Positions 8,093 through 45,100 of a stretch of 64,000 nucleotides of DNA are shown piece by piece. The position numbers and the translations under genes were made by a program. The first letter of the stretch is position 1; the number at the start of each line of letters is the position of its first letter. The notes beneath the pieces are model-generated. The model did not search any database and had not been told where the DNA came from. It saw only the letters and a program-made list of their open reading frames with translations. The DNA is from Amoebophrya sp. A120 (taxonomy: Eukaryota; Protista; Dinoflagellata), in contig CAJINV010000005.1 of NCBI GenBank assembly GCA_905178155.1, positions 377,319-441,318 on the forward strand, in the 5' to 3' direction.

Positions 8093-10284
8093 ATGAGGTT
8101 CAAGGCTACCTTCGATTACAAGTGCGCCGATTACGTCGGTACCCTGATTGAGAAAACCTTTTGCGACTCCGCTGGCGCAGCGGGGCCCTCGCGGGGGGCC
8201 AACAATAAAAGAAGAAATAACAATGCAGTGGGAGGCAACATCTTCGGCAACAACGATAACACTCCCGCGGTGCAGCAGACGATCATCGTGACGTTTGATC
8301 TCCAGCGGATGATCATCGTCCTCAGCGAGCGCACTGCCAACGACATGTGGAACGTGGAGATGAAGACAGACACGCTTTTTCAAGCCTTCGGGCCGCGGGG
8401 GCAAAAGTTGTATCACTGCGAATCCATGCAGGAAAACACTATCCACCTGTCGATGCCCGTATGCATTGCAAATATTTGTCTGGGTCTGGAAGTAGACTGC
8501 CATATTGTTTGTCATACCTGTCTGACGTGACAGACTAGACGAGACTCTGTGATGGGTGGTGCGCACGAGAAAATCTTGCAGCTTGTCATGCAAAAACGTA
8601 GTTTCCGCATGCCGTGCGGACGAGTACACAACTCAAAGCAGCCCAAAAGCTTATCATGATGCTTGGCTTCGTATCATTGCAACGCGTCGTCCATCATGCG
8701 CTTTCTACCAGTACAGCTTTCGCTTTCCAGAGCCACACATGTCTGCATTTTGGATAGCCCGCAGCGCAGTTCGCGGACGCCCTCAAAAAGCCGAGCAAAG
8801 AGGACGAGATGCAGGTCGTGGAGCTGAAATTGACCAAAGACCCGGATCGGGGCAACAGCCCGGCCCTACTCGTGAAGAAAAAAACGCAGACGTGCGGGGT
8901 CGTAAACACGATGATCCCCTGTTTTGTCGTCCAGGATATCGACCGAGTGCCCACCATTCCCGACGTGGACAACGACGAACTCGTGAAGGTCCACTTTGAG
9001 GCGGTGAAGGAGCTGAACCAGTCGCTGTCCGTGTACCAGAAACTACTTACGAAGTGCGACAAAATCGATTTCTTCGTCGAGAAGGAGCGAAGTTACCAAC
9101 AATTGATCGTCACCGCAATGTATCAAATGCAAAAGTGTCTGGCTCTGGAAGGTTGCAACTTGTCATGCTAAATCTGAATCATGCAAAAGATCTGTGCTGC
9201 ATGATTACCAACAGCCGTCCCTTTTATACCAAGTCGAGCGGGAATTTCTCATGCAGGATAGGCACGATAGACATCTCACAAAATTTGTCATGCTAGGTGC
9301 TGCACTCCAGACCTCATGGGTCATAGAAAACCTGCATGACAAATCTGGCATCCTTCCAGACCCAGACACTTTTGCATTTGATACAATGACGCCGCCCGAC
9401 AGCGATGTGGAAGTGAAGTCGTATTTCAAATTTCCGGTGGTAAACAGCGAAAACCTCGAGTCCGCGCGGGCGGTCTTGTCTTTGAAACGATTCGTGCCGA
9501 TATCCTGAGTAAAAACGTACCCACACCAGAGTTGTAATGCAAATCTGCATGCCAAAAAAGTTTCTCATGCTGAGCCCCATGAAAGGCATTTTCTAATCGT
9601 GTTTTGCGATTTGTGATGCTATAATCAGCATGATATGCTAGACCTGTGATGCTGCTGAACTACCTAAACAGGATTACATTACAAAGACAAACTTGTCATG
9701 CGAAACAGCCAAAGCTGGTTGATTTGTCTAGCAGATTTCCCATCTTGACTCTGGTGTGGGTACGTTTTTGCTCAGGATAGCCGAACCTGAAGAAACTCGC
9801 CCGGGTCAGCGAGGGCTACGGCCTGGAATATTGTAAGGAAAAATCCCCCCTCCCCATATCGAGAAGGTATGTTTCCGAAAATTTGTGTTGCTGATTTGAG
9901 ACCACAAATCACGTCTGTCTTGCAAGAAGGCAAGTGTAGAGGCTTCCGCGCCATTATGGAAGCGCTTTGGCATGCTGTTGCGCCTAGGGGGCAGCCGTTT
10001 GTAATGCTAAGCAACTAGACCCAAACGCCCCGACCTAGGCCGAAGATCTGGCTGCGCTGCCTTACTGCAAGACAAATCGGATTTGTGTACGCAAATCCAG
10101 CATCCGAAGTTTCGTTTTGATATGGGGAGGGGGGATTTTTCCTGTTGATATGGAAAGCATTCTGTTCGCGGTCTGCAACCGGTTTGTCGTGGTGTATGTC
10201 ATGCTTGCCGACAATATAGGGGTGCTCACCTGCTTCAATTTAGGCTGTGCGGACGAGATGATCGGAGGGGCTGCGGGGGGATGA
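8093..10284 (+). CDS. HUS1: Hus1-like 9-1-1 checkpoint clamp subunit, 336 aa; exons 8093-8459, 8762-9120, 9389-9500, 9785-9828, 10156-10284
   Basis: Removing four TIR elements plus one direct repeat each gives a 1011-nt ORF: MRFKATF...LSMPAAQFADALKK...VELKLTKD...NTMIPCFVV...PTIPDVD...FVPNLKKLARVSEGYGLESILFAVCNRFVVVYVML...*. The M(K/R)F(R/K)A start, LKLTK, IP..V and P.IPD motifs and the size resemble Hus1 (recognised by eye). Confidence 0.7.
8460..8756. mobile_element. Introner E1 (TIR family A, degenerate), 297 bp
   Basis: Ends TATGCATTGCAAATATTTGTCTGGGTCTGGAAG ... CTTTCCAGAGCCACACATGTCTGCATTTTGGATA. GCCCG direct repeat at 8455-8459 and 8757-8761. Removal restores the frame. Confidence 0.88.
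9121..9383. mobile_element. Introner E2 (TIR family A), 263 bp
   Basis: TIR TATCAAATGCAAAAGTGTCTGG(C/G)TCTGGAAGG, 31/32 match between ends. CAATG direct repeat at 9116-9120 and 9384-9388. Removal joins LIVTAM to TPPDSD. Confidence 0.95.
9501..9779. mobile_element. Introner E3 (TIR family B), 279 bp
   Basis: TIR TATCCTGAG(T/C)AAAAACGTACCCACACCAGAGT, 31/32 match. GCCGA direct repeat at 9496-9500 and 9780-9784. Confidence 0.95.
9829..10150. mobile_element. Introner E4 (TIR family C), 322 bp
   Basis: TIR TATnnnnAGGAAAAATCCCCCCTCCCCATATC, 28/32 match. TGGAA direct repeat at 9824-9828 and 10151-10155. Confidence 0.93.
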
Positions 10285-10953
10285 TGCTGGAAGCACGGGG
10301 GCGTTTCGGGCCAAGAATAAAGGCTGTTGTGCTACCGACACAGTGTCCTTTGCCAGGAAAGCATAAAGTTAAAGTTATAAGGAGTTCTCGTTGCACTCGC
10401 TGCTCGATTCCGACAACTGTTGGCAAATCTTTCTTCATTCCGTTCGCATCTCACGAACGAGAAGCGAATATAGCATCGTCAGGAGGATCAGTATTTTTGA
10501 AGCAGAAAAAGCGTGTTCGATTGTGCTGTCCCCAGCGGAAGCTGCTGGTAGAGAGTCTGTTGCATGTCAACATGTGCAGGAGCCAGCTTCAATCTCTTAG
10601 ATCGAAAATGTGGAGTGAGCGAGTCAGTATTCGTTTTATAAATATATTGCATTGCGCGACCAGGAGCACGACAGGTAGACCTCAAGCTGAAGGAAATGAG
10701 TGCCACGTGCCTCGTTGTTTTCTTCTATCGATCGAGCGTTGCCTTTGTTTTGATGGTGTCGAGCAGTAGGTGTGCCTGCGTTGCGTCGATGAGATTCTCT
10801 TTTTGAGTGGCTCTGTCAACACATCAGTCGCAAATCGACAAAAAGTTCGTCCAGCAAGGCATTGTAGAAGTAGATCGTAGCAGGACGAGATACGATTACA
10901 ACCCACTGCGTAAGTAGTTTCTTTTCTCCAAATCAAAGCCATATTCGTTGACC

Positions 10954-12231
10954 ATGCTCTTCCGTGCCACGCATCATTATCTGGATCCGGGGGCAGACAG
11001 GGCGCACGCCGCTTCCCTCGACGCCCTGTTCGATTCTTTTCTGCCCCGGCGTGCAACCTCCACGACGTCGTTTCCATCACACAAGAGCTGTCACAGCATG
11101 AAATTTCCGACCTCAAGAACGGTTTTCGCTGCAGCTTCTGAAAAACCACAAGGCATCGACTACGATGACGACGCCGATGACGACGAGACGCTGCCTTCAA
11201 ACGAATCGCTCGACGGGGTCGTTGCCACAGGGGACAAAGACCAAGGTGAACAAAAAAGTGGTGGCATGATAAACAGCCTCGAATCCACCCTGCAGATGAA
11301 GCAGCTGTCTATGGAGGAGGTGAAAGAGCTGATCGCGAGGGAGCACAGCTCCTCGGAGAAAATCGCGAGGATACGGGAAGAAGCGATAACGGGGGACGGT
11401 GGATCTCCGCTGGCACAGAAATTGGAGAAGATCCAGCGCATGTTTCCGTCCGGCTCCGGGATGATGGACATTTTCCCCAACATCGTGAAGGAGGGCAAAC
11501 GGCAGGTCAGCAAGGCGGCGAGCGGGATGAAGAACCTGATGTCTACGGACGGGCTGGCGGAAATGCTGAACTACGTGCAACTGTTTCAAATGAAAACGCA
11601 GCAACCGGAGACGGTGAAGACAAAGATGGACTTGCTTTTGAACCCCTCCATGCAAGAAAACGATGACCGCGGCCCGCAGGACAAGCACATCCGGCCGCCG
11701 GTGCACGTCACGATGGCCCCGGCGTACGAGGACATGTCGTTCGGGGGGCAATTTGCCCGACCGCCGTCGACAGACGAGATCTACGATCTGCCTCCAGTGC
11801 AGTGGGACGTGCCGGTCTACCACTTCAACCCACTGTTGGGCCCATCCTCGACGAGCAACACGCACCCAAGACTCTCCGCAACGCGTGGCTGGCCGGGCAC
11901 ATCCGGCGGGCCGAAGGGGACGTTGATGCCACTACCCGTGGGTTTAAACACGCAAGTGGTGCAGGCGACGGACTACGAGTTGGAACGCCCGGACCCGTTT
12001 ATCCATCGGACGAACCCAAATTACCAGCTCCCGGTCCCGTGGATCGACGCCAGCATGGGGAACCGCAAGCCGGACACCTCCGCGAAGCAAATGCTGGGAG
12101 ACCAGGGCATCGCGGTGGACGGGATTTCCCAGGCGCGGAGCTTGCAAAACCGGAAAATTTACGACCCGGACTACTTTGCCACATCGTTGCTGCGGGAGGC
12201 GCCAGCACCGGAAAGGGCGGCGGAGGCGTAG
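10954..12231 (+). CDS. Hypothetical protein (~425 aa)
   Basis: Long ORF with GC-rich third positions; no family recognised; upstream exons possible. Confidence 0.6.
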   Translation: MLFRATHHYLDPGADRAHAASLDALFDSFLPRRATSTTSFPSHKSCHSMKFPTSRTVFAAASEKPQGIDYDDDADDDETLPSNESLDGVVATGDKDQGEQKSGGMINSLESTLQMKQLSMEEVKELIAREHSSSEKIARIREEAITGDGGSPLAQKLEKIQRMFPSGSGMMDIFPNIVKEGKRQVSKAASGMKNLMSTDGLAEMLNYVQLFQMKTQQPETVKTKMDLLLNPSMQENDDRGPQDKHIRPPVHVTMAPAYEDMSFGGQFARPPSTDEIYDLPPVQWDVPVYHFNPLLGPSSTSNTHPRLSATRGWPGTSGGPKGTLMPLPVGLNTQVVQATDYELERPDPFIHRTNPNYQLPVPWIDASMGNRKPDTSAKQMLGDQGIAVDGISQARSLQNRKIYDPDYFATSLLREAPAPERAAEA

Positions 12232-12810
12232 ACTGTGGATACTATCGCAGTTTTGTAGTAAGGCTCTCTGATTATAGCAGAAACAACGGACGGAGATTTT
12301 GTTGGTGGAGAGCCTGTCCATTGTGTCGTATTAAATGGTTTCATTACATGTTTCAACGAGTTTCAACAATTTCAAGAAGTGCAAACGAATGAACCCACGC
12401 TGGCATGAGGTGGTCATATGAAAAAGTATCCTGGTGCCCAGGGCACAACTGTAGCTGAGCTCCGTTTCGTTTTCGGGCGGTGCTGCGCTAATTCGGACTC
12501 GATCGATTGTTTTTTCGCCGCTCTGCACCAGCTCCGTCAATCCGATTGTCTACGTGGCCTAGTTATTTTCCAGTGCAGCTATTGAGAGGATCGGTAGAAA
12601 AGCTCTGGCGCTCGGAGCTCGTCGGCGCGGCTTCGCTTCGATCGTGTTGTCATTTTCGTGTCCATCGATAATCGATCGACGATACGACCTGAAGTCAAAT
12701 CTTGTTCCTGTCGTGTCCTCTAACGGTCAACATCGTTCTGACAGCAGCAGTTGTTGTCTATTACTTCGCAAACGTATCCTTCTGCGGGTCAAAAATAAAA
12801 AACCTTGAAC

Positions 12811-14694: not shown

Positions 14695-15336
14695 TTTGCT
14701 GCAGCAACAGGTATCTACTATGTACCGCGAACCAGAAGTTGTACCGTAGACGCAGTAAGAGAAGGTAAGTAGTTGGTAGAGATGCAGTTCAAGAAGAGAT
14801 GACTTTGCTCCTCTGGCTTATCTCGGAGCATGCAGACGTGGCTGCTCGTCTGCCGGTGACCTTCTCCATTCGTTTCCATGACGGTGTTGGTCGTGTGCAT
14901 AAAATCGATCTCGTCTGTCATCGCTTTTTCTTTGTGTGGATGATCTGAAACTGTAACTTTTTTTATCCCTATCGACCCATCGTTTCTACCACTGAGGGCA
15001 CAGTGATGTTCGTTTTGTCGCAATAACTCGTCGCTCTCGTCGTCGTCGCCGTTTTTTGTTCGCCGTTCAGATCCAAAAAAAATCAACATGCCTTTTTCCA
15101 AAGCATAAATTAAAGTGATATTGACTACGCTTCAAAGGGAAAAAAGTTCCAACGACAAGGCAGAGAAACATCCGCACCGACCCAGTGCATAGAATTGATC
15201 ACCGTCATGACGGATACGCCACTTCTGCGCAACGAGAACCACCTCTCTCTTCCGCAATAGGCCAAGGAGAAACAACTTTTGCGCGGCGACCCTTGACCGG
15301 CCACTGCTCCGACCGCGAGCGCAACAGTATCGACAG

Positions 15337-25869: not shown

Positions 25870-26963
25870 ACCATTCCGTTGTCCATGATACACGAAATCA
25901 GAAGAAAAAACTAACTGAGATTTTTCCTTCGGACAATCGTTTCAAGAAAAAAGGAGATTTATTTTTTTCAGGAACCAGAATTTCGAGTCCATGACACAGA
26001 CACTACCGATAAATTTTCTCGACGATATCGATGCTTCTTCTCAACAATCATACATAAAGACATCAGATTCGGATTCGGAGACAAAAACAAAATCTACTGA
26101 AAGAGGATCTAAATAATGAATCAATCAGAATTTAGGATAAAATGCAGAATTTTTCTAAATGAATATCAAGATGTGAATCTGAAAATTGAGGAAAAAATTT
26201 CTCCATCGATCTCTGATTCTTTCCGAGATTCGAAGAAAATTTGTTGATAATTGAGAGGATGGATCGATCGATAAAATGATATCAGATTTTTGATCAGATG
26301 ATTTATCGGTTTGCAGGATATATCTGGATCGCCAGATTTTTCGATTGAAATTTTTTTTATTTTTAGGATGAATGAGGTTCGGTAATGATCATAAAGAAAG
26401 AAAATCTCGGAAAATCTTTTCTCGGGGAGAGAGAAAAAATCGAAGAAAATTTTTCAAAAATGAAAATTTATCAATTTCGGAATCAATATGATGAGAATCC
26501 GATTTCTATGAAGATTTTTTGAAAAATTTGCCGATGATTTTTATCATATGGAATTTCAAGAAATTTTTTCAAATTTAATAACGAAATTTTCCAATTAATT
26601 AAAAGAAATCCGATACATTAAATCCAAGAAATTAATCGATCGATCGATCCGATTATATATGATGTATATAGATAAAAGATATTCCAAATAATATTGAAGG
26701 ATTCCATTGGAGAGATAAGACAGAAAATTCGAGATACATGCATCGATCGAGACAGATATTTTTTTCTCTTTCCTTCATAAAAAATTCATATGATCGATAT
26801 CAGATCGAATCCATCTGAAGGATAAATATCGATATATTTTTTTTCATTTTTCAAATCAGATATCCCCATCGTTTTCATCAATGAGAATGCCATATGAAAT
26901 GAGAACAATCTCGATTAAAAAAATTGATTGACACCTCATATTCAAAATTTGAAGGAATTTATT
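25870..26963. other. AT-rich, GAT/ATC-enriched non-coding tract in the strand-switch gap
   Basis: Essentially no ORF of 60 aa or more in any frame; abrupt composition change with frequent GATC and ATCGAT. Confidence 0.6.
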
Positions 26964-28978
26964 CGGGACGGCAGTGACCTGCTGCTCTATGAAACACTAC
27001 GGGACGCCCTGGAGAAAGTAGGACCCGCGGGACACCTGTCGCTGGTGTTCACAAAGTCGCACAGGAAGGTCGTGGATGGCAACGAGGTCGCGGACAAGCT
27101 CGCGACCATGGCCAGGGAGCAAACCGACTACACCGAAGTCGGTGCGAGGGTCACGCACAGACAAGCCAAGCCAGCGGGAGGTCGCGAGGTCCCTGCGGCA
27201 GCAAAAAAAGAAGGAGCTGCAGGACAAGGGAAAACAGACAGGAGGGTCCAAGACCTGCACGACACTCCGCCAGGTGTGCAGCCAGCCCGGTCGACAGCGT
27301 GGCACACGCGACGAGGGCGGACGAAGTCGCCTACAACGCGGCAAGGATGGGCCTGCTGGTTTCGGACATAACCGGTAGAGACTACGCCTGCCCGTTTTGT
27401 CAAGGGCGGACACAAAACCCACCGGCAGCAACGACGGCGCACTTGGTACAGGAGTGCCCGGCCCTGCAACACCTCCGGGCGGTAGACCCGTCCAACCCGG
27501 GCGAATTCCGGTCCGCGGCGCTGCAGGAGGACCCGTTTTGGGGCATCGAGTTCATCAGGCTGTTGCGGCGCGCGCTACAGCCGGGTGGGGAGCTCGATGA
27601 CGATGCAGACTGGGACAGCGACACCACCGAGGACGAGACGCAGCAATACAACACCGGGGCCGAACTTTTCAGCGCAAACAAAGCGCCACCAGGACTCCGC
27701 CCACCGCTTCCTCCCCCCCAAACATACTACCGCGGGCGCGGGGCGTCGGAGGGGGCGTGGGGGGGTCCTGACCGGTATTCTAATTGTTTTGGCTACGTTT
27801 CCTTGGGCTCCGGCGCATTGACTTCCGCTCCGTTTTCAAATGAGATTGCATTCCCACACCCAAAGTTAAAGTTTCCTGCTTGCGCCTCTCAACATCACCT
27901 CGCACAGGAGCCGGCAACCACCGCTGGAGTTTCACCGTACTGGCACCGCGACCCTCGACTTGCACCGGCTTCCACCTCACCTAGCCTGTCGCTACAAGTC
28001 GATCCGCGCGACGTAGTGCCCCCGCCCCTCAACACGCACTACCTGAGCAGGCCACATTCATTCCAAACACAGCAGAGCGGTCCACGTCCGCATGCAGACC
28101 CAGAGCACCTACGCGAGAAACCGACACGGGCACCCCGGGACGGGGGGTGCCCGAACAGGTATATAAATGAATATAGATTTTGTCGATCCTTTGGTGCTCA
28201 TGGAATGCCTCCACACTCTGCTGCTCCCGTCGCTGCTCCCCCCTCAACATCCACCCAGGTGCACCCATCCGGCCCCGGGCGCAGCCACAACAGCCAGTGC
28301 GACGGCTCTTCGACACGGACTTGGTGGCCGCGCGCATCGAGGATTGCGAGCACTTGCGGCTGGCACCCCGGCGACATCCCAATGCGGGTGCCCCAGGGCG
28401 GGGGGCACCCCAACAGGTATAGTTCTACTCTTTATGCCTGTGGCGGTGCATGGCATGGAATGCAACAATATCATGCTGGTCCCGGTGCTCGTCCTCCTCA
28501 TAATTCCCAGGTCAACCGGCACTGCACGACCAGCGGACGGACCTGGTGGCTTTGGGACGACCGAGACGGCGACCAGGCAGGGCGACAAGATGGAATTAAG
28601 GAAGCGACAATCCCCATCCAGGCCTGGCGATACCACGACGACTTCTACGCGCGGGGCATTGCTGCCGACTGCCGATGGCCGGAGATCCGAAATAACCGAT
28701 TGCGCGCGATAGCGGGGCAAAGCGGTCTACACCTACGCGATCAGGGGGCGGGGGCTCCCGGGCGCGGGGGCTCCCAGAACAGGTATAATTCCATTTCGCA
28801 TGGCTGTGGTTCTTTTTGGAATGCCGAAGTCCACCACCCTCATGCTGGCGCGTTTGCTTCCCTCCCCCACAACACCCAGGTCCATTCCAACCACACGACG
28901 GGACCTAAGTCCGGACGATGGAAGACCGGACACTGGAACACGACCAGGGAACCTTACCAGGAGGCGACGTGGCGCTGA
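26964..28978 (+). mobile_element. 5'-truncated, frameshifted LINE remnant (RNase H C-terminus + CCHC knuckle + repetitive tail)
   Basis: LSLVFTKSHRKVVDGNEVADKLA matches the RNase H C-terminal motif and CPFCQGRTQNPPAATTAHLVQECP the knuckle. Pieces lie in different frames (shifts near 27170 and 27295). Sharp GC rise at about 26964. Confidence 0.75.
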
Positions 28979-30053
28979 CCGAGCAAAAAACGGAAACGAT
29001 ACGAAGAGATTATTGATCGGAGAAAAGAGAAATAGATGTTGATCCAGGAGCTAGCATTTTGCTGGCTCCAGCTGCTTTTAATCGGAAAATATGTCTTGAA
29101 ATCTAGATCCTTATTTTCGGTTGCAGGTGAAATTGAAGAACAGGAAGATGAAAATCAGAAAAAAATAATCTTGAAATCTAGATTTATTTTTGACAAGAAC
29201 TACGACTGCAGGAGCTACGAATTATATTTTTTCAATTTTCTTATTCTGAAATTGTTGTTGTATTTGACCTTAAATCCAGATTGTCATTCTACGAACTTGT
29301 TGTTGGCTTTTCCATTATTATTTTCAGAATTAGATCTTTACTAAGCTTTTCAAATTGAGTCGGTTCTGACAGGAAAGATCACCAGAGGAAAAAATTGGGA
29401 TTGCAACGGAACTTCTAGGGCCTTGAACATTTGACGCCATGCCCGGGCATGGAAAGAAAGAAAGAAAGAAAGAAGGAATTTATCAAATGGAAATCTTTCG
29501 ATTCATCATGATTTTGATTGATATCTCTTTTTCCGGTTTCTCGATGGTATCGAATGTCTAGTGTGAAGGAATAGAAGGGTGTTTTTTTATGTCGAGGATG
29601 GTTTGTGTTCGTGCGTAACTTTTCTTTTTCATTGTTTCGACTTTCGGTTCGCAAACTATTTCCATTCATCGTCAACAAAGATCTAGGGCATGAGTATCTC
29701 ACCATGTGGATGATTCCTCTTTCATCTCCCACATGTGGCGGGGCAAAAATTTCTCGTTGTGTTACGTTAATCAATCTTTTCTGTATGTAAGTAGAAACAT
29801 AGGTTGTAGATCAATACATAGTCTAAATTGAAGGCAGGCACCAAAACGAACCAAAAATGCACTTGAAGGAATCTTCAGGGTGTTTGTTCATTTCTGAAAA
29901 ACGATGTCAATTCACATCGGGAAAGAACCTTGCTTGTGGTGCATTTTTTCATTGCAAGAACGCAGCAAAAATTTGCCCGCACATTGTTCATTTGCTACAC
30001 AGTACTACACGGCTTCTTCTGTTACAAAAAAGTACCTCCAGCTACGCAACAAC

Positions 30054-33000
30054 TCATTGCAACTGCATCTGCCCGCCATGCTGTTGTTGGTTGCTCATGA
30101 CGCCTCTGCGATTCGGGATGAAAGGAGCTCTGTTTCGCGCTGCCAGTACAGCAGCAGCCCTCCTCTCCTTTTTCCGTTGCTGTTTTTGTTCGAATTGTTA
30201 TTACATCAATGAGAACTACCTCGCACGACAATGCCGGTATGGACTATGCAGAGAGAAGACGACGTAGACGAAGAAATTGTCAAAATTGGCCGATGAGATG
30301 AGCCTGATCATAGAAAACGCAGAAGAAAAAAATGAAAGTCACGTTGCTCTGTCATTACATTACCTTTTTCTCTCCAGGTGGGCACAGGTGGCAAAAAGGA
30401 CAGTCGTCCCCGTTACTGCATTCCGCGCCTTGTTTGAAAAAAAACGCGCAGGGCTTGCACATCCGATTGGCGTGGAGTTCCGATTCGAGGTTGAGGCTTC
30501 TCCGTCCTTGTTGCGGCTGCACTCCCGCAGCGGAAGAAGCAATATGAGCCGCTTGATGCTGTTTTGCGTTGGTTTGCAGTTCCGCTTCCTCAGACGTATC
30601 TTCCTCGTAGCTGGTCGGCTCTTCCTCGTCGACCTCCATGTAGTCGTTCTTGCTCTGGGTGTGAGACGGCGCCTCTATTTCCGCGCTTGTGCCTTGATGT
30701 TCCTCGTTTATTTTCGTCTTCATCCCCTTTATTCGACGTTCCATCGCATTCCTCCGCCCCTCTTCGGTCAGGTAGTCGCCCTCCATCGGCGACACCACTC
30801 CCTGCGGCGACTCGTTTGGCGGCAGCGGTTTTTCAGGCGACAGGATTGCCGGGCCGGATTCTGGCGGTGGATCGACCACGGTCAGAAAGTGGCCCTGCTG
30901 TTCCAGTCTTCGATCAATTTCCGCCTTGTTTTCGTTCGCACTCGCACCCTTCGGGAAGACGGGCCTATTTGTTTTCTTCATCAGCCGGTTGGTGAAAACG
31001 GGGCGGTTATTCGGTTGATAGTGATATTGGAAATTATGCAGAACGCTGTACCTCCCGTCGTGTGCTGGCCCACGACCTTCTTGGTCGGGCCGAGGCTGCT
31101 GTTCCTGCAAAAAGCGGTTGTGACAATCGTGCATAGCGAGCGCAGCGTCGGTCAAAGGCATCATGGGGGCGTGACTGTTGTCCACTGTGTCAGTGCTGTA
31201 GGGTGCCGGCACGACCTGGTCCGCAAAGCCGGCGTACAGATAATTCGGATTGGTGTCGTGCTGCTGCCAGTACTCCGCTGTGCAGGAGATTGGGTCTGCG
31301 AAGAGCTGCCCTCCGTAGGACGGATCTGTTGGATCAAAAGTGTGATGTTGCTCTTGGTGCTGTTGCCGCATGTCGTATAGCTGCTGCACCGTCGTGAGGG
31401 CGGGGACGCTGTTTGCGTTGTCTGCAGCAAGAGTGCCGTTTTGTACCGGGCCTGCCGCGCCATTCCCGACAAATATGCCCGGCGGAGGTGGAACTCTGTC
31501 CACTGGGGCAGCGCCAGGGGCTCCAGCACTACTCTCCACGCCGTACATTTGTTGCATGTCGCTCAAATCCGCTTGCAAAGCTCGCCCACCGCTCGCTCCC
31601 GCCGCCGTGGGCCAGGCGGAAAAAGGGAAATCGCCCGACATTGCGAGATATCAAATGTAAAAATGTCTGGGTCTGGAAGAGTCATGCTGTTTTTGCATGA
31701 CACAGAAGGTCTGGCATGGAAGCTCTAGCATCACAGGTTTATAGAGCCTTCCGCAATGCCGAATCCGCATGACAAGTCCCCTATTTTGCTGACAAAAAGT
31801 GGGAGCTTTTGCTACGTATGCATGAGAGACTTTTCTGTGTTCTGAAATACGCATTACAAGTTGCATTCTTCCAGACCCAGACACTTTTACATTTGATACG
31901 AGATTCTGCCCGGCGAGCTGCTTCGCCGCAGTCAGGTTCGTTTCCCGGATCGCTTCGGGAGCGAAGGGCAAACTGGTGAAGTCCAGCATCCCTTCATCGT
32001 TCATTGCGATAATACCGGGTTCGAAGTCGATGCAAGCGGAACTCCAGGTCGGGTCAAAGGGCACAGCGTCAGCAGACAGCTGGGTCGTACTTGTCGGTGG
32101 TTTATTGCCTGTAGTGACAAGTTCTCTCATCGAAGCGTTCTGGTTCGTAGCGGGTAGATGCGCAAATGTCGGTCTGCACTCCCGCACCTGCAATTGTGAC
32201 GGGTTATCGATGGAGGTAGGATAGTTTAAGTTTTCCGCGTCCGTCGTGCTCATGGTGGTTGTGCCAAAAATGGAAGAAGAAGTGGCACCACCTCCCGGTT
32301 GGTCGTGCTCCGCGGATTTATTTTCAGGCACCGGAATTTTTGCGGGCGGCGAATTGTCGTCCGTGTGGTCCTTGTCTTCTAGCAGCACTTTACTCGCGGA
32401 ACTGTTCGCACCTTCGGCTACTTTCTCATCTACAATCCCTGGCTGGTGCAAAAATTTACTCAACTCCAGGATTTTCCGCGGCAGTGCGGGTCCTCTGCTT
32501 GCAGCGCCTTGCTGGTTGTCGTCCTCTCTCTTCATGGCGTCTTCATCTTCCGCTTTTTCCGATGGTGTCGGGGAAAAAGCCACCGCCTTCGGGGACCAGG
32601 TCGGCGCGGGGGGCTGCCCGGGCTGAGTGTTGGTGTGCCAAAAAGATGGACTTGTGTTTGGCGGGGCTGGGAAGAAAGCAGCAGCTCCTCCTGCACTCGT
32701 ATTCGGGTCGTAGTACTCGAAGCCAAGCGGTAGGGACAGCATTTGGTCGAAGGGCGACCGAGATCCGGCTTCCACCACGGTCGGATTGCATTGACTTCTC
32801 GTCGGCGAAGGGGAGGCCGATGACGCGAGACAGGGGTCGACCCGCTGCTCTTCATCTTGCGATTTGACCAGCTTATTTTCGGTCTGCCTTAGAGAGTTGA
32901 GAGTCGCCGCACCAGAGGTGGTTTTCGTTTTCTGAATCTTGTTCATAACCTTGCCTTTCCTCTTACTTGGGCTTTTCTCTGCCTCAGCAGCAGCGTTTCG

Positions 33001-35366: not shown

Positions 35367-36767
35367 TCACGTCACCTTCTCATTTGATTGCTTTTTCTCC
35401 TCTGCCACGAGAAAAGGTTCGTCCGCCGTGCTCTGTATCGTATTCTCCGGCTTTTCGGTTTGTGGATTGTGATTCTTGTTTGCACCTCCACCAGTAGCAG
35501 CCACGACACTTGCCGTGCGCTCGCCCGCCTCGTCGCTGGCCGCTCCGATCTGCTGGTTCTCATGCTCTGGTATCTTCAGTTTCACATCTTCGGCTCCTGC
35601 GTCCTTCACCACATCCAGACTCAGCAACGCCACCGCTTTCTCGCTTTCCCGTCTTTTCTCCGCGAAGACGACACTACTCAACGCCGTTTGCAGCGCCGTG
35701 CCGGCGTTTCCGGTGTCCCACAACTCTTTCAACCGGATGGTTCGGGGTCGCTGATCCTTGGCGACCGTGTGGCCGACCTTGTTGAAGTAGTTCTGCTGCT
35801 TTTCCTCGGACGGGTAAAAGACGTTGGTCTGCAGCCAGGGGTTTTCGGAAAAGCCCTGCACGAAGGTCTTGATGTCCGCGACGTCCTTGCCCAGAACCTG
35901 CGCCACCTCTGCAATGCTGCTTTTTGCGGCCGCAAACTGCTCCGGGGTTTGCGCGTAGATGCCACTCCGCACCTTGTCCCCCCGGACATCGAACTGGCCG
36001 CCGCCGTCCAGGGGGTCGACGTTGGTCCAGAAAGCGTGGAGAATATCCGGGGTGAAGGGCAGGGAAGTGCGGAACTGAACAGCCTCGGTGTACCTGTTGT
36101 TCATTACGTTGAGAGAGCTTCGCTACTTCAGCGGATGAGTGCTTTCAGCGTTAGTGTAGTACATGAAACAACAGAATGCAGCAAAACAGAGATCAACGTA
36201 AAACAGATAGAGAGCTCGGTTAATATACAGCTCTGGATCGTGGATGTGGTAATGGACGTAGCGCTCCGGTCCCGCGGTTGGTCCTCCTCCGTACTGTGAC
36301 CGGCCCGCCTGCAGTTGACCCCGCGTCGTAGCACCGGCGAACGGACCGACCAATCCGGACAAGATGGTTTTGTTCACGCAGGGGTCTTTGGGCGTCAGCA
36401 ACTCCCGGAGAGCCTCCTCCGCGCACCAAAAACATCCCATTGCAAACATCACTTTGGGGTATTTTATGCATTCGAGCGAACTACCTTCCTGCTCACCGGG
36501 GGCCCAGGCGGGCTGGTGGTACTCGGTGGCAGTACTCGTTTGTTCCTTTGCCACCTCATTGAGAAACAGTTTCTTCTGGTTCTGTGTGTGTTCTTGCGTT
36601 GTACCCCTGTCGCTGGCTTTTGATGTGGAGGCACGACTTCTTGTCCTCTCCGCGGAAGTCGAGATCTTATGCCGGTGCAGGTTCTGGACCGCCAGCTCGG
36701 AGGCAGAGGCGAAGGGGAAGGGGGAAAGCGAGATCGCTAGCGCGGCATGCGAGAGCAACCTTTCCAT
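35367..36767 (-). CDS. msrA: Peptide methionine sulfoxide reductase A paralog 1, 399 aa; GT-AG intron 36094-36294
   Basis: FAMGCFWCAE active site, YTEAVQF, FWTNVDPLDGGGQFDVRG, SGIYA and FYPSEEKQQNYF; hydrophobic N-terminus. Confidence 0.85.
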
Positions 36768-37687
36768 ACTTCTTTGCTGTAGCTTTTCTTGCGCAGTGAC
36801 GAAATTATACGATTATTCCCCTCGGCCTCGCGCTCGCTCGGACTTGATGCTTTTAGAAGTCACATGTTGCTGTGAATACTCACTGTTTTCTTGGGGACAA
36901 AGACAAAAGACGGGAGAACCAATGAATACATGATCGAACAAGCTCCCGCTCATGCTCTGCTCCACTCAACTGTCAAATCTTATGCTTGCATTTTTTAATC
37001 CCCCTTGTTATTATGTTTATCTTCGTATAAGAATCTGGTTTGGGAATCAATCGCGCTTTTCTTTTGCCTCCTCTCAATATCGTCGCCTTTGACAACTGAG
37101 AAAACATCATTCTAGGGGGTAGTCCAGAATCGCGTCGAATTCTCACCCTTTGAGATAGAAGCAAAGCTTTCTATGTCTACTTACATCCAATGGCGGGGAG
37201 GTTCTTTTCATCTGTACAAGAATAGTGCCGTAGTTTCCTTTGGTTATCCTCGTGCCCCATCTAGTTTTCTGTACATTAATTTCGATTGTTGTTGTTCGGC
37301 TGGTGGCATCGGAGTCCGATATTTCCGATGCCCTCGCAATAAGGATACCGATGCCCTCCCCCTCGCAGCAAGTATACAATGGTTCAATTTATTAAGTCTA
37401 CTACTTCGTATTCTGATGCTCTCTTCTCAAAGCATACATCAAACATAGGTGGCAGGGGGCTCCAGCATCCTGAAACTTGAACGTCAGACTTACGGTCAAA
37501 CTACCGCGCAACATATATAAGGCGTGCTGCGTCAGCGTCCTGTCAATAACAACAGAAAAGGTCAGAATGAAGTCAATATCTGGCAACTGCTACTGAAACT
37601 GAGTTCAACACGAATTTGTCGAACAAATTTTTTTTCGTTTACTCCCTCTCTTTTCGTTCCGCGTCACAAATCCCCGAAAAACCTGCT

Positions 37688-40075
37688 TCACGACATCACC
37701 ACGGTGTCGGCATGATTGGTCGAAGAGTGCTCATCTTTCGCCGCAGCTGCTGTCGCCGTCGCGGGTTTTTGTTCGGGCTTTTCCGCGCCGCTGCATCCCG
37801 GACAGGAGAGAAATGCGCTTTCCGGCGTCGCTTCCGCCACAGCATCCTCGGCCCCACGCGCCGCGCTGTCGATGTCCACAGTCGCTTCTAGTAGTGGACC
37901 ACCACCGGTGGTCTTGTTTCCGCGCAACGCAACCCCTGCAGACGTAGTGGTCATTCCCATCGCCGACTTCAGTGCGTCCGTAACCCCCTGCGTCCACAGC
38001 TCGTTCAGCCTCATCGTCCGCGGCGCCTCCTGGCCGGGCTTCTGGTCCGGGTTCTGGCCGAAGTAGTTCTGCTGCGAGGCTTATCAAGTGCAAATATGTC
38101 TGGGTCTGGAACAAGGTTTTGCAAGTTTGTCATGCATCTTTTGGATCATACAGATGCTCTGGAATGCGCGCAAGAGCAATACAAGTTTTGTTCAGGTCTC
38201 CCGATGCCTATTCTGCATGAGAAACTTCCTATTTGCATAGCGAAAAGTGGACAGCTTTTGGCTTTCATGCAACACAAATTCTTGCGTAGTCCAGAATTTG
38301 CATGCCAAGTTTGGATTCTTCCAGACCCAGACATTTTTGCAGTGCATAAGGCTTCGACCGGGTGGAACTTGTCGGTCGAGGCCATCTCGACGATGAAGGT
38401 TTTGATGTCGGCGGGTTGCTTTGAAAGCGCGGTTATGGATTGCAAATATGTCTGGAAACTTGTAATGCTAAAAGTGAATGATAGACGCACTGCAATACGC
38501 AGCTATGCATGACAAATTGTATTTTGGCTACCATGTCTTACGTATTCCGCATGGCAAACTGCGTTTTTGCATGACAGATAAGAGGGCTTTTTCGTGCCTA
38601 TGGAACACAGATTCTCGAGTCATGCCAGACAAGCATGACAAACTTGCACTCTTCCAGACCCAGGCATTTTTGCATTTGATAGCGGTCGCGACCTGGCCGA
38701 GCGAAGTTTCGGCCGCGGTTTTTTGTTCTGCTGACTGCGCGTACACGCCGCTGACGTAGGATTCGCCCTTGTTCTGGAACTGGCCGGAGCCGTCGAGGGG
38801 GTCGATGTTGGTCCAGAAAGCGTACAGGACGTCGGGCGTGTAAGGGGTGGAGGTGCGGAACTGGACCGCTTCGATGTACCTGTGATGGAAGGAGGAAACT
38901 CATCATGGCAGGGGGAGTCTTGCAGTAGGTGCGGGTGCGCTCGGATGTGACATTCAATCTTAGGCAACCCGTTATGCAACTCAAAGCATAGCTGCGAAAG
39001 CAAACACCAGCGAAAGCAAACACCAGCGAAAGCAAACACCAGTCAATATTCGCAAATAAATACTAAAATACTTTTCCGGCAGCGACAAATGGTTCGCGTA
39101 CGTAACTTCGCCCCCGCCTGCCGGCGTTGGCCCCACCAGGCCCGATTTGATGGTGGAAGCGACACACGGATCGGAGCTGAAAACTTCCCGCATTGCCTCC
39201 TCCGCACACCAAAAGCAGCCCATGGCGAAAACAACTAGCGGATTCTGGTCGCAAGAAGTGGTTGAAGCTGCCGCGGTGACGGGTTTCGTTCGTTGCCCCG
39301 TTTGCTTTTCTGAAGATGACGCTGCAAGTGAACCGGTACTGGTTCCCGCCGCGGGTGCGGCCTTCACCCATTTTTCCCCAAAACCCGTGCCGCCAATGTC
39401 CATTTCGGCACTGCCGTCGTCCTTCAGCGTCACACTCAGATCCCCGTGGGCCTGCATGCTGTGCTGTTTCGTTTCATCGGTGGGGTCGCGCTGCAAGTCG
39501 CCGGTTTGACCTTGAGTGAAAGGAGAGATTTGGTTCGATAAGCTACTCATGCCATGAGTTTGCCGGGTAGTTCACATGGAAATGGAGAACCAACATGAGC
39601 GATTTTGTTCAATTTCTTCTATACCTTTCAGCAGCTTCCCGCCATTTTCGAACGAAATTCCGTAAATTGTGTCGTGAAGCGCCCAACTGCTCCCGCCCCC
39701 GGCTCCTAGCCACACCCACATATCCTTTGTGGAATCCAGCTCTCCTGCTTTTTCCGGAAACACCGTCTTATCCGTGTTTTCTTTGCTGTTCCCCTGGGTG
39801 TCCTTGTCTGCTGCGGTGACGTAGATCGCACCGCCGCCGCTACTGTAGATCCCGTAGTAGGGCGTGCGTGGGTCGTCGGCGGTAGCTGCGGCTGCGGACG
39901 CGTGTTTCTGCGCTCGACGCTGTTGAACGGTTTTCGCAACTGCAAAAGAGGTGGTGAATGATGATAGCGAAGGACCCGAAAAGATTGGCAGCAACGCAGA
40001 AGTAGCGAAGAGCCGGGTCCTTAAAGAGCTACCGGCAGAGTGGGCCTCGTGTCGGCGGGCGAAAAGGGCCGACAT
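37688..40075 (-). CDS. msrA: MsrA paralog 2, 518 aa; exons 40075-39625, 39510-39072, 38879-38682, 38428-38349, 38076-37688
   Basis: FAMGCFWCAE, YIEAVQF, FWTNIDPLDGSGQFQNKG and FHPVEASQQNYF. Two GT-AG introns and two introners; exons total 1557 nt in frame. Confidence 0.85.
38082..38348. mobile_element. Introner E6 (TIR family A), 267 bp
   Basis: TATCAAGTGCAAATATGTCTGGGTCTGGAA ... TTCCAGACCCAGACATTTTTGCAGTGCATA. AGGCT direct repeat at 38077-38081 and 38349-38353. Confidence 0.93.
38434..38681. mobile_element. Introner E7 (TIR family A, left TIR partly deleted), 248 bp
   Basis: TATGGATTGCAAATATGTCTGGAAAC ... CTTCCAGACCCAGGCATTTTTGCATTTGATA. GCGGT direct repeat at 38429-38433 and 38682-38686. 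Confidence 0.9.
38994..39042. repeat. Perfect tandem repeat, 3 x 16 bp (GCGAAAGCAAACACCA), inside a canonical intron
   Basis: Read directly; lies within intron 38880-39071. Confidence 0.9.
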
Positions 40076-40553
40076 GGTTTCGACAGCACTGAGCGGAGTA
40101 AACGTAGTTGATTCAAAGAACAAACAGTGCTGTTGCGCACTGTCAAAGTCGGAAACTACCACGCTTCCTCCTTCTCACTGCAAGATGGAAAAAGCGTAAG
40201 CGTGACGAGGTTTTGGCACTCAGAATGCAATCATGTTTATTGCGAACAAGAAGAAAAAAGACGATGTAGACGCTGCCCACGAATAGTCCGACGACCCCGA
40301 GCCCAGTGCGACGTCAAAGCAATGTAAAATGACGAAGGTTTATTTCATCATGTATACTTACTTAGTCTTCCAACGAACAAGCGCAGCCCGATTGTATGCA
40401 AACGCCGCTGACGAGCCTGAGGCGCTGCATTTCTCATTTGAATATAATAGCGCGAGCGAAAGCGTAAGTACTTGAACGTGCGTTCCTGCTTGGGTCTCTT
40501 AGGAATTTCATTCTTGAGCTGAAGTTCTTGTATATTTGAAAGAGTCCTTTGCG

Positions 40554-41966
40554 TCAGACCTGAGATAATATTTCGTGGACTCTTCTTTCATTGGTATACT
40601 GCTCTGGACTCTGTCTCTTGCTGTTGTCCATGACAACTGCACCGAACTCTGCATTCCGGATCTCCTCAAGTGTTGGGAAACTCTGCTGCACCCCGGCTTT
40701 CGAGACTGAGAGACTTGCTGCTGCACAGGCTATGCGGAGTATCTCGGCGTCATCTTCTGGCATATCGCACCGGCAGAAAAGGAGAGCGAGAACGCCCAAG
40801 AAACAGTCTCCTGCCCCGACGGTGCTAACAAGGTTTTTAATCTTGCCGGGTACCGCACGCACCTCACCGAGGTCATCTTCTTTGCCTTCATTATTGTTAC
40901 GTTTTTGCCGTACCATGAGAGCACCCTTTTCGCCCAGCGTAGCAACTACGCATGGCCACTCGGAATTTTCGAATTTCGGCTTCAATGCAGTAAGCAAACC
41001 CACACTGCAAGCTACCGGCCGGGCCTTCCATGTTTCCCCTATGGCTTTCTTTACCTTCTGCGGCACTACTGCTTCGAACAGCTCTTCGAGTTCTACCTCG
41101 TTTACGCAGATGCAGTGCGCCAGCTTGATCGCCTTCATGATTTTCGTGTGTATCGCACCACTGCGAGCGCCGTCCGGGACGGGGGCAACATTTAGGATCG
41201 TGCGTCCCTTGATCGCAGCTCGAACTGGAATTTTGCAGTGTTGTTTCCATACATCAAGAGCTCGGCAGAAAGATGACCATAAGATGAGGATCGTATAGAA
41301 ATCAAATAATGTCTTCTACAACAATCACAACTTACATGCAGTACCAATTTCCATCGCACGAATGGTGACATCCAGCGGCGACTCGCACTGGCAAACCAGG
41401 ACCTTGCAGCGAGATAGCAATTTCTTGCAGGATTCTGACTCGATGTCGGCAATAGTCAAATCGTCGTTTGCTCCGCCGGCGACGATGATGGAATTTGTGT
41501 TTTCTGCGATCGTGATCGACGCTATACCCGACGGCTTGTCATTCGATGTGAAAACCCATTTGTCAGACACGCCGTTTTTCCGCAGATTTTCCCTCGTCGC
41601 TCTCCCTATCTCGTCGTTGCCAAGCTTCGAAATCAATGCAACTTGTAGTTTTTTTGTCGTCGCCTCGCGATTTTCGTTCGCCTGTACTTGCTCCGTTTTC
41701 TGTTTCTTTGCTCGGGGGGAGGTGGGCGACGAGGAACTCTGCTTTGCTTTCTGTTCCGGTCCTATCGACAGCAAGAGCTTCCCGGCCGCAACCGCTTGAT
41801 TCGCGCCTTTTCCGCCAAAGCACTCTTCATACTTGTGACCGAGGATTGTCTCCCCGGGCTTGGGGAATTTGTTCGCATGGACGATGAGATCCTTGTTGCA
41901 GTTTCCGAGAACAACGATCTCCGGGTAGTGCTCGTCGTGGTCAGCGGAACTGGAACTGGCTGCCAT
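40554..41966 (-). CDS. rbsK: Ribokinase (PfkB family), 430 aa; GT-AG intron 41225-41344
   Basis: IVVLGNCNKDL, PKPGETI, GGKGANQAVAA, ILNVAP, NEVE, TLGEKG and STVGAGDCF motifs. Confidence 0.9.
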
Positions 41967-42148
41967 TTTGTCTAGAATTTACGACAGTCGTGTGCATTCA
42001 ACAAAAATGCGATTTACCACGATAAGAAATAGGCTTTTGAAGATTGATCGTATAAGGAACGGCACACTACAACTGCATCACCACCCCGAGATCCTCTTAT
42101 CTTATTCAGAATTGGTTTGCTTGTGGGACGAAAAAAGAGATCTGTGTA

Positions 42149-45100
42149 TCATCTGCTTCCACCACAGCAAATCGCAACAACACCGGGACTCCTGCAACTG
42201 AAAAACTGCACAACTTTTCTTTTCCTGAATAGCTCTGTTTGTTGTTCAACATGATCGTGAAGATTCAAAGTAGATTCATCCAAACCGTTCATCTGCTTGT
42301 CCATTGCCTTGGCAAAAACTCTTTTCGCAATTTTGGTTTTCGCGTTCACGACAATTTCCTGGGTTCTTCGCATCCAACGTATCAGATAATCATCGGAGAG
42401 CTTCTTCGCCAAGTCCGTCATGTTGTGAAACTGCACGACATGCGGGCCCCAGCTGTAGAAGTCCAGCTTCGATGCCCAGTAGTAAAACGCCGGCTTGGAT
42501 TCGAACATGCGGAACGGGCTGTATTTCGCGGTCCTTGGGCAGAAGCGGTTGCAGTTTTCCGCCGGTTCTCCTCGGAGCTGTTTCGCTTCGTTTTTCTTAT
42601 GCGAGTGCACGACCTCCCCCTCATTTGTATGGCATGAACAGCAATACAAACACCAGTACAGGTGGACCCTATGCATGACAACTTCATGCGCGGCATTTAG
42701 TACTGTTTGGGATTCCGAAATTTGTCATGCACACAGTGGCACAGGGCAGCAACACAACTGGATTTGGGTTTTTGCATGACAAATGGGGGAGAGGGGAAGC
42801 TGTGCACTCTCATACTTCTGTGAAGTCGTTGTGAACACCCCGTCCTCGTCGTCGACAAACGGGACATCGAAGGGCAAAACCGTGTCTGCTTCTGTGGCTA
42901 GATGCTTCTCGTAGTTCTTGAAACCTTCTGGAACCGTTTGCTCAGCGGCGAGGATTGAGTCTTTCTCCGCTTCTGTCAGCCAGCCGAGCTCTTTGGCAGT
43001 GAGTAAGGAAGTTGTTCTTGACTCGGGCGCTTGATCGTCGGTGGCGTTCAGGAAGTCATGCGGGGAGAGTGTCGAGGTGCTTGCGTCTATTTCTGATCCC
43101 TCAGCACTGTTGTTTTTTTCTCCCTCCTCGTTATTTGCTGGAACGGAATACAGCAGCTTTCTCTTTCGCAAAATCTCTTCCATGGGTCGAAACGCCTTTC
43201 CGCTGTTGCCGTAATAGCTCGGGTGCCAGGAGTACAAGATCTCGTTTAGCATCACACTTCTCGAGTACGTGCCGAGGTACGGATCGTGGTCTTCTGGTGC
43301 TGAATTCGCTTCAGGTTCTCCTGCTCTTTCCCCAGAAGTCGCAGTACCGCCCTCCTCGGCCTTCGCCTTCCTCTCAAAAAACGCCTGTCTTTCCAACCGT
43401 CTCAGCACCACCCGCTGTAGGTGGAGGTGCCAGCGCCAGAGTAAGGCGACCGAGGGGGCGAACAACGGGATGCCCAAGGCGTGCGCCTCGTGCCAGAACA
43501 TGGGGACGGTGGAGTAGGGCATAATGACCATGGCCTTCACATCCCTCAAGACGTCCGCCCATTCGTATTTCCGGTTCGCGAAGTGACGGCCCCAGCTGCT
43601 CAGGATCACGGGGGCGTGGGAAAATTCCTCTTGCTGCGTGTCTACTTGGTCGACGGTAGACCCGCTTATTCTTTCCGCCGTTCCCGGTGCATGAGTTGAT
43701 TGTGATACAACAGCATGTTCCGTTTTGCCGTACAACAGACTCCCTTCCTTCCTGCTTTTCACCACCGCGTCCTCGTTGTAGTCTCGGCACAGCCGAAACG
43801 AATTCCGCAACCCCATCCGCTCGACGAGCAAAACTTCCCACCTGGTCGTTTTCTCCGCGCCCGTTTTCGCCGCCTCCTTCTGGATCCACTTCACAAACCG
43901 GGAGTACAGCGCGGAAAATTCCGGCCAAGGATACGGGGATTTTTCGGCGGACGCCATCATCCCGCGGTCCGGGTCCCAGAGCACGCGCCACAGGTCGGCC
44001 TGGTCGTATTTGCATAAATGTTCTGGGGGGATCGGGTCTACTGGTGGTGGAGATGATGGTGCGGGTGGTGGTGGTTGTATTGCGGTTTCCGTTTGTGCTT
44101 CCTCGCCTCCACCAGCGGCGTTTACTGCTCCATCCGAAGAAAGCCCCACATTGTCTACTTCGTGCTCCCTGTGCGTCTTCGCGTCCGACCCCACCGCGGA
44201 CAAATACAGGTAGTCTTTCACCCTTCGCTTCGTCTTTTCGTCCGCACTGGCCGGTACGAAGGTCTCGTGCTGGATTTTCACGAAGTTGTCGAGCCGGTCC
44301 GCGGTGATCCTGGCTTTGTAGATCTGCCGGAGCAGCTCCTGCACCTCCAGAATCCAATCGCCGACCTCCGTCCGCACCCACTCAACCAGCCAGGCATCAC
44401 CCGCGGACCCGCCGTGCGCACCGGGAAGCTTGCGGCCGCCGAACAGGACGTATTGGAGGTGGGGGTGGTGGTCTTCGGGCACATCGACTGCAGCTCCTTC
44501 AGGTGTCACAATTTCGCTGTCGCTGTTTGAAACTGGCGAAGTGGTAGTCATCGTCGAGGGAGCACTGCTCAATTTTACGAACCCCGATTCCTCCGCGTGG
44601 TACCTTTCCCAAGCGTCTCTCGTCGCCGGATCCGCCAGCAATGCGTCTCTCGTTGGGTAGACGATGGGGAAATCGACAAAATTTTTCCGCCCAGCTAGGT
44701 AATCCAGAAACGCCATGTCGAAGGTGCTGACGGCCACGGACACCAGATTCCGGTTTTGCAACACGTCGTCGAGAAAAAACGCTACATCTTGCTCCGTTTG
44801 CAGCCCTATCAAATGCAAAAATGTCTGGGTCTGGAAGAGTCTGAGATTTGTCATGCATGTTTTGCATGACTCGGGATGTCTGTAATGCACGACCGCTCAT
44901 CACAGACTTTGAGAGGGCTTCCTGATGCCTACTCCGCATGACAAACGCCCTCCCCGCGTAGCACAAACTAGACTCCTCTTGCTGGTCATGCAATACAGAT
45001 TTTTCTAGAGTCCAAAGCAAGCATCACAAGTTCCAATCTTCCAGACCCAGACATTTTTACAGTTGATAAGCCCCGCGAGATTCAAGTGCGGCACGTAGAC

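What the first reader, a model, noticed from the sequence alone, without database searches (positions are those of the whole stretch)
8460..45068. Nine TIR + 5-bp target-duplication mini-transposons that behave as non-canonical introns
Seen: elements at 8460-8756, 9121-9383, 9501-9779, 9829-10150, 31649-31898, 38082-38348, 38434-38681, 42598-42814 and 44807-45068. All start TAT, end ATA and carry ~30-bp TIRs with a different 5-bp flanking direct repeat each (GCCCG, CAATG, GCCGA, TGGAA, CGAGA, AGGCT, GCGGT, T/CTTCT, AGCCC). Each breaks the host ORF, and deleting the element plus one repeat restores it in all nine. Sliding the junction through the repeat never gives GT-AG or GC-AG on the sense strand. 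Established, from memory: inverted-repeat introners with direct repeats were reported in Amoebophrya (Farhat et al. 2021), with the removal mechanism unresolved as far as I know. Inference: a precise removal pathway guided by the terminal stem, running beside the normal spliceosome.
Basis: partly seen in the sequence, partly recalled or inferred. Interest (0 to 1): 0.95.

Follow-up and report, generated by a model that had tools for sequence, protein, structure and literature searches.

The report
Known Amoebophrya transposon introns, precisely removed
These nine inserts are copies of the already published transposon-derived introns of the marine parasite Amoebophrya A120; likely-RNA assemblies lack the five tested exactly, and removal is likely guided by the element's own two ends rather than by normal GT-AG signals, by a machine that is still unidentified.

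Summary
All nine elements exist at the stated coordinates with TAT...ATA ends and a 5-bp flanking repeat (eight perfect, one mismatched). Removing element plus one repeat opens the host frame in 9 of 9, and no register gives GT-AG or GC-AG. The gene at 8093-10285, with four elements removed, gives a protein identical to an annotated Amoebrophrya-type record: Amoebophrya sp. A120 HUS1-like protein. Likely-RNA contigs of one sample skip 5 of 5 tested elements exactly, beside GT-AG introns. This class is published: Farhat 2021 (TAT-starting introners) and Gozashti 2025 (5-bp TSD, TA termini). The scan has 33 similar notes from this genome. Added here: an element with no detectable stem is still removed exactly; one cut lies 1-5 nt upstream of TAT; and in an assembly of a relative (about 90% amino-acid identity, one gene) the same families sit in both orientations with no GT-AG bias. 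The enzyme is unresolved: relaxed spliceosome about 0.5, separate nuclease-ligase about 0.35. Already known; interest 0.3.

The parts
8093..10285 (+). HUS1-like gene, five exons, 336 aa
   Evidence: In-silico product identical to P0001, Amoebophrya sp. A120; Pfam Hus1 E 3.3e-08, residues 59-225, spanning the first junction
8460..8756 (+). Element 1, repeat GCCCG, decayed arms
   Evidence: removed in the annotated protein; not tested on RNA
9121..9383 (+). Element 2, repeat CAATG
   Evidence: not tested on RNA
9501..9779 (+). Element 3, repeat GCCGA, different TIR family
   Evidence: not tested on RNA
9829..10150 (+). Element 4, repeat TGGAA, different TIR family
   Evidence: not tested on RNA
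31649..31898 (-). Element 5, repeat CGAGA, in a gene with no Pfam match in the two exons scanned
   Evidence: Contigs of X3 and X4 join 31643 to 31899, 255 nt out, 0 other letters; Pfam scans
38082..38348 (-). Element 6, repeat AGGCT, in a gene with an MsrA (PMSR) domain
   Evidence: Joint 38076-38349 in 4 of 4 runs; PMSR E 3.7e-09 in exon 38687-38875
38434..38681 (-). Element 7, repeat GCGGT, one arm truncated, no fold signal
   Evidence: Joint 38428-38682 in 4 of 4 runs; z -0.5
42598..42814 (-). Element 8, imperfect repeat (sense AGAAG/AGAAA)
   Evidence: Joint 42593-42816, 4 letters of slide, in 4 of 4 runs: the upstream G leaves with the intron
44807..45068 (-). Element 9, repeat AGCCC
   Evidence: Joint 44801-45069 in 4 of 4 runs
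38880..39071 (-). Canonical GT-AG intron in the same gene as elements 6 and 7
39511..39624 (-). Canonical GT-AG intron in the same gene as elements 6 and 7
41225..41344 (-). Canonical GT-AG intron in a PfkB-family gene (control that X3-X6 are spliced RNA)

Best explanation
These are short inverted-repeat elements with a 5-bp flanking repeat in genes of Amoebophrya A120; likely-RNA contigs lack each tested element together with exactly five repeat bases, and the cut is likely set by the element's own two ends and likely made by a spliceosome with relaxed site choice. Step 1 (inferred): a transposase supplied in trans, possibly Ginger- or integrase-like, inserts the element in either orientation and duplicates 5 bp. 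Step 2 (shown in contigs): the element is present in the DNA-like run and missing from spliced transcripts that also lose GT-AG introns. Step 3 (inferred): both ends carry the same TAT-N7-AAA motif and usually pair, so the signal exists in either orientation and does not depend on the flanking letters. Step 4 (partly shown): the 5' cut lies inside the upstream repeat, 1-5 nt before TAT. A fixed cut 1 nt before TAT and 4 nt after ATA, proposed in earlier unreviewed scan notes, fits my one informative junction. It would make each intron start N-TAT, like the GTAT/GTAC starts of the three canonical introns here. Any such insertion restores the original mRNA.
For: Exact joints in 5 of 5 tested elements (X3, X4; X3-X6). 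One X3 contig bridges two elements and two GT-AG introns (record 1). Contigs of X1 run from the flanks into the elements (table 8). The A120 annotated protein is identical to the element-free product and lacks the extra Pro that a nearby GT-AG pair at element 1 would add. In the related assembly, 137 of 166 elements found by their ends alone have a perfect 5-bp repeat and 151 of 166 have TAT...ATA. Among 204 oriented perfect-repeat elements, G at repeat position 5 equals C at position 1 (63 and 63), and GT-AG occurs in at most 8 of 204 in any register, about 7 expected by chance. Families occur in both orientations, for example 42:33, 19:18 and 12:10, and the 5' and 3' end profiles are alike. 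For the spliceosome specifically: canonical donors here start GTATTT, GTATAG and GTACTG (n=3); Farhat reports nearly all spliceosomal proteins present with U1 undetected; Fritillaria is a precedent (PMC13326754, abstract).
Against: Nothing here shows the spliceosome acting: there are no lariat, branch-point or knock-down data. The lack of any preference for G at the intron start, AG at the end, one orientation or a 3'-specific motif is unusual for a spliceosome and fits the rival pathway as well or better. One family is skewed 18:5 in orientation (p 0.011, one of seven tested). The RNA evidence is assembled contigs from one sample whose RNA status is a guess, and it cannot measure retention. 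The four plus-strand elements were not tested on RNA. Elements of the related assembly are not shown to be spliced. The register rests on one junction that allows five positions.
Confidence: 0.5

Rival explanations
1. Same elements and same RNA-level removal, but by a separate endonuclease-plus-ligase pathway that measures from the paired ends, as proposed for euglenid nonconventional introns.
For: No splice-site letter bias, both orientations used and symmetric ends; seven of nine elements fold strongly. Euglenid introns of similar anatomy leave as full-length circles without lariats (review PMC11282704, passages), and a distinct machinery is suggested for them (PMC12501133, passages).
Against: Element 38434 has no fold signal yet is removed exactly. 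No candidate enzyme was looked for, as no genome was available. N-TAT would resemble the canonical donors (n=3).
Confidence: 0.35
2. The junctions are reverse-transcriptase skips across a hairpin between direct repeats (a known library artefact, recalled), and true mRNAs retain the elements or the genes are dead.
For: A stem flanked by direct repeats is the anatomy that favours such skips; all RNA evidence here is cDNA-derived contigs.
Against: The stem-less element 38434 is skipped as cleanly. Retention would break all nine frames, including HUS1-like and MsrA-domain genes. An A120 protein aligns collinearly across such an element in the relative.
Confidence: 0.05
3. The elements are excised from DNA in the transcribing stage, as ciliate IESs are, so transcripts come from element-free templates.
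For: TA ends, TIRs and a retained single repeat recall DNA-level excision; ciliates are fellow alveolates (recalled).
Against: X1 contigs enter the elements from single-copy flanks at all five tested sites, and no element-free joint is among the 15 joints shown (446 more not shown). Element ends also occur in likely-RNA contigs with other flanks (table 7).
Confidence: 0.05
4. The elements are removed by the ordinary spliceosome at nearby GT-AG sites, adding or losing a few codons.
For: Frame-preserving GT/GC...AG pairs exist within about 35 nt of the ends of all nine (4-19 per element).
Against: All five RNA joints remove exactly element plus 5 nt with no other letters, and the annotated HUS1-like protein matches exact removal.
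Confidence: 0.02

Closest known systems
Introner elements among the non-canonical introns of Amoebophrya sp. A120 (Farhat et al. 2021, PMC7789003; read abstract, section 10 whole, passages of sections 11, 12, 16, 17, 32, 36, supplement figure legends; figures not seen)
   Same: Same strain. IR motif TAT + 7 variable nt + at least three A, 3-5 nt direct repeats (Fig. S19 legend: 5 bp), about 240 nt average non-canonical intron length, RNA-seq supported, mechanism open.
   Different: The paper gives IRs of 8-20 nt and variable repeat length and leaves the border unknown. Here arms reach about 30 nt, the repeat is uniformly 5 bp, and one cut is placed upstream of TAT.
A120 introner families of Gozashti et al. 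2025 (PMC12130899; passages, and 40 of 58 A120 rows of supplement file 8)
   Same: TIR DNA families of about 250-320 bp with about 30-bp TIRs and mostly non-canonical sites; family 38 is noted 'Ginger; 5-bp TSD, TA/TA termini'.
   Different: I did not match my elements to numbered families. Their automated TSD calls vary from 2 to 6 bp. The main text says family 38 lacks homology to known Gingers.
Euglenid nonconventional introns (PMC11282704 and PMC12501133, passages)
   Same: MITE-like, paired ends, direct repeats at junctions, coexist with GT-AG introns.
   Different: Different lineage and end motif; circles were shown there and nothing comparable is known here.
Fritillaria borealis non-canonical introns (PMC11282704 passages; PMC13326754 abstract)
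   Same: MITE-derived with TIR and TSD, no GT-AG.
   Different: They keep preferred terminal dinucleotides and are linked to divergent U2AF. The related assembly here shows no dinucleotide preference in the repeat.

Membership tests
Amoebophrya A120 introner elements | Occur in the A120 genome | tested here: met
   Spliced product identical to A120 protein CAD7949088.1
Amoebophrya A120 introner elements | IR begins TAT, seven variable nt, then an A-stretch | tested here: met
   All 18 ends start TAT; most have AAA at 11-13, while the 42598 ends and one 8460 end deviate; strong A bias at 11-14 in 241 elements of the relative
Amoebophrya A120 introner elements | 3-5 nt direct repeat at the borders | tested here: met
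   8 perfect and 1 one-mismatch 5-bp repeats
Amoebophrya A120 introner elements | Removed from transcripts without GT-AG | tested here: met
   5 of 5 tested in likely-RNA contigs of one sample; four not tested on RNA
Amoebophrya A120 introner elements | Repeated in families | tested here: met
   All nine cluster with copies in the related assembly; many X1 contigs carry the ends with other flanks
MITE (non-autonomous TIR DNA transposon) | Short, TIRs, fixed-length TSD, no transposase gene | tested here: met
   217-322 nt; 137 of 166 perfect 5-bp repeats in the relative
MITE (non-autonomous TIR DNA transposon) | Cognate autonomous transposase with the same ends | tested here: inconclusive
   No genome held; eight longer TAT...ATA pairs in the loci showed no convincing internal gene by eye and were not scanned against Pfam
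MITE (non-autonomous TIR DNA transposon) | Empty orthologous site or observed movement | not testable with these tools
   Orthologous DNA of the window's genes was not obtained
Spliceosomal (U2-type) intron | GT/GC-AG ends | tested here: not met
   No register gives them in 9 of 9; chance level in 204 others
Spliceosomal (U2-type) intron | Lariat with branch adenosine | not testable with these tools
   Contigs only
Euglenid-type nonconventional intron | Stable pairing of the two ends | tested here: inconclusive
   Strong in 7 of 9, absent in 2 of 9
Euglenid-type nonconventional intron | Excised as full-length circle | not testable with these tools
   No raw reads covering these genes (X9)

The most novel reading that the evidence does not exclude
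Amoebophrya A120 and a close relative run a second, non-spliceosomal mRNA splicing system that recognises the transposon's own symmetric ends in either orientation and cuts at a fixed offset inside the target duplication. Every new insertion is then silent, whatever the flanking sequence, and the system tolerates loss of the stem once the end motif is in place.
Probability: 0.35. Interest if true: 0.85.

Novelty: already known. Interest (0 to 1): 0.3.

Why it matters
The elements are published, so the observation adds no new kind of system. The open question is how a eukaryote removes tens of thousands of introns that lack splice-site letters. The constraints found here narrow the machine and suggest simple reporter tests: it works in both orientations, shows no flank-letter preference, cuts upstream of TAT and does not need a strong stem. 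If a separate enzyme is responsible, it would be a new nuclear splicing pathway that makes transposon insertions harmless.

Tried and rejected
No whole genome is held, so no genome-wide scan and no search for a transposase, snRNAs or ligases was possible; the record behind L011 is not held either. No RNA holder is on record: X3-X6 are guessed to be RNA, which is supported by three skipped GT-AG introns. The TIR pattern had 0 matches in viral contigs. I suspected an orientation bias because the window's four family-A copies lie the same way; the larger set rejected it. I tested for selection toward GT or AG inside the repeat and found none. I tried to read the cut register from 38 imperfect repeats by stop codons or codon usage, which was uninformative. 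No autonomous or nested element was recognised among the longer copies. Extra likely-RNA cover over element 38434 cannot be told from other copies of the family, so retention was not assessed. In some searches, TAT/ATA was imposed by the scan, so its 100% conservation there is no result. Paper searches showed no paper resolving the mechanism or fixing the register; subscription journals, the figures, 18 of 58 supplement rows and supplement files 13-14 of PMC12130899 were not seen and could bear on this.
Full report
Observation. All nine elements lie at the stated coordinates, are 217-322 nt long, begin TAT, end ATA and are flanked by a 5-bp repeat, perfect in eight and mismatched at one base in 42598. 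A relaxed scan finds exactly the eight perfect ones and no others in the window. Twenty block-shuffled windows gave none with a perfect repeat. Removing element plus 5 nt opens a long frame in 9 of 9, on + for the first four and on - for the other five; retention would frameshift five and bring stops into the other four. No sliding register gives GT-AG or GC-AG. The arms are about 30 nt in six elements and about 22 nt in 42598. They are decayed in 8460 and 38434, which fold no better than shuffles (z -1.0 and -0.5, 25 shuffles each), while the other seven score -5.0 to -10.8.

Identity. A search with the second exon of the plus-strand gene returned one protein among 190 candidates, 100% identical and named Amoebophrya sp. 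A120. Its 336 residues are identical to the product obtained by removing all four elements plus one repeat each, and it matches Pfam Hus1. The window is therefore A120 DNA, and the public annotation already treats these inserts as introns. That annotation is a gene model, not an independent RNA test.

Transcripts. No holder is on record as RNA. Runs X3-X6 (one sample, assembled contigs) skip three GT-AG introns, so they behave as spliced RNA. They join 38076-38349, 38428-38682, 42593-42816 and 44801-45069 in 4 of 4 runs, and 31643-31899 in the 2 such runs laid there. Each joint removes element plus five bases with no other letters. One X3 contig spans two elements and two canonical introns. 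Contigs of X1, which may be the window's own source, enter the elements from the flanks; no element-free joint is among the 15 joints shown, with 446 not shown. The four plus-strand elements were not tested on RNA. Two junctions are informative. Element 38434 lacks a significant stem yet is removed exactly. At 42598 the transcript keeps the last base of the downstream repeat copy, so the 5' cut lies 1-5 nt upstream of TAT and not at TAT.

A relative. A TIR pattern hit 146 loci, a partial scan; the 80 listed all come from one metagenome assembly. One of its proteins clusters with an A120 protein, which aligns at 90.5% over 686 residues and 80.8% over 78, collinearly across one element. On this one gene it is a close relative, not A120 itself. 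Of 166 elements found by end similarity alone, 151 have TAT...ATA, 137 a perfect 5-bp repeat and 15 one mismatch; the loci were selected by an exact TIR match, which favours intact copies. Of 322 elements of all families with usable flanks, 241 could be oriented with a codon model trained on window genes and 81 were dropped; 130 of 133 neighbouring calls agree. In the 204 with a perfect repeat, G at position 5 and C at position 1 are equally common (63 each), and GT-AG appears in 0, 1, 0, 1, 8 and 0 cases over the six registers, with about 7 expected by chance for the fifth. The seven largest families, window copies included, lie 42:33, 19:18, 18:5, 16:7, 12:10, 13:6 and 5:4 relative to the sense strand; only 18:5 departs from even (p 0.011). 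The 5' and 3' end profiles are alike. These elements are not shown to be spliced; they sit in frames that open on removal.

How it likely works. Inferred: a trans-acting transposase inserts the element in either orientation with a 5-bp duplication; none was found here. Shown in contigs: the element and five repeat bases leave the transcript. Inferred: the signal lies in the symmetric ends, since flanking letters and orientation show no bias, and a strong stem is not required in at least one case. Earlier unreviewed notes of this scan propose a fixed cut 1 nt before and 4 nt after the element. My one junction allows it without proving it, and my codon test could not resolve it. That register would start each intron with N-TAT, close to the GTAT/GTAC donors of the three canonical introns seen. 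With Farhat's report of a near-complete spliceosome lacking detectable U1 and the Fritillaria precedent, I put a relaxed spliceosome at 0.5. A separate nuclease-ligase route, as suggested for euglenids, fits the missing letter preferences equally and gets 0.35. A reverse-transcription artefact and DNA-level excision get 0.05 each, and nearby GT-AG use 0.02.

Comparison. Farhat 2021 describes A120 introners starting TAT, then seven variable bases and an A-stretch, with 3-5 nt direct repeats, 66,565 RNA-supported introns of which more than 60% are non-canonical, and an unknown border and mechanism. Gozashti 2025 lists 58 A120 families, many of them TIR elements of this size, and notes '5-bp TSD, TA/TA termini' for family 38. 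A 2025 genome paper reports that another Amoebophrya uses mainly GT-AG and has U1 (PMC12005148, passages). A review reports a U1-70K homologue in A25 (PMC12787238, passages), which cautions against reading the undetected U1 RNA as a loss. Four paper searches on Amoebophrya introns showed no study resolving the mechanism.

Verdict. The feature is real, correctly described apart from two decayed TIRs, and already known; this scan holds 33 similar notes from the same genome. The residual value is a set of constraints on an open mechanism and evidence that the families extend to a close relative. Interest 0.3.

Noticed in passing
run X9 laid on window 44807-45068 and 31649-31898: A raw-read RNA run with the same species label covers none of the exons but has 143 reads 90-99% like the elements, mostly the right end of 44807, continuing into a different flank: a related element is retained in an abundant RNA of that sample.
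   Followed up: no
window 42598-42814: The single repeat mismatch makes the upstream copy end in G, so the proposed 1+4 register would give a GT donor; among five position-5 mismatches in the relative only two have upstream G.
   Followed up: partly
inside the elements, e.g. 8583, 9160, 9285, 38127, 42722, 44848: A sub-terminal motif TTGT(A/C/G)ATGC recurs in both orientations across different TIR families: 20 of 23 window matches lie in the elements. It could be a shared transposase or splicing-factor site.
   Followed up: partly
window 25950-27000: A very AT-rich (30% GC) intergenic stretch rich in GATC/ATCGAT words, unlike the rest of the window.
   Followed up: no
window about 29000-30300: The longest ORFs switch from + (1-29 kb) to - (30-64 kb), two convergent co-oriented gene blocks.
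   Followed up: no
window 35370-36122 and 38687-38875: Two neighbouring genes both carry a PMSR (MsrA) domain, possibly a tandem duplication; only the second has these elements.
   Followed up: no
L058 4792-5763, L052 4001-5031, L037 3862-4492: Long versions (630-1030 nt) of the main family with intact ends and 5-bp repeats, no nested element and no obvious gene.
   Followed up: partly
oriented elements of the related assembly: 20 of 38 repeat mismatches fall on third codon positions, as expected if one copy of each position stays exonic.
   Followed up: partly
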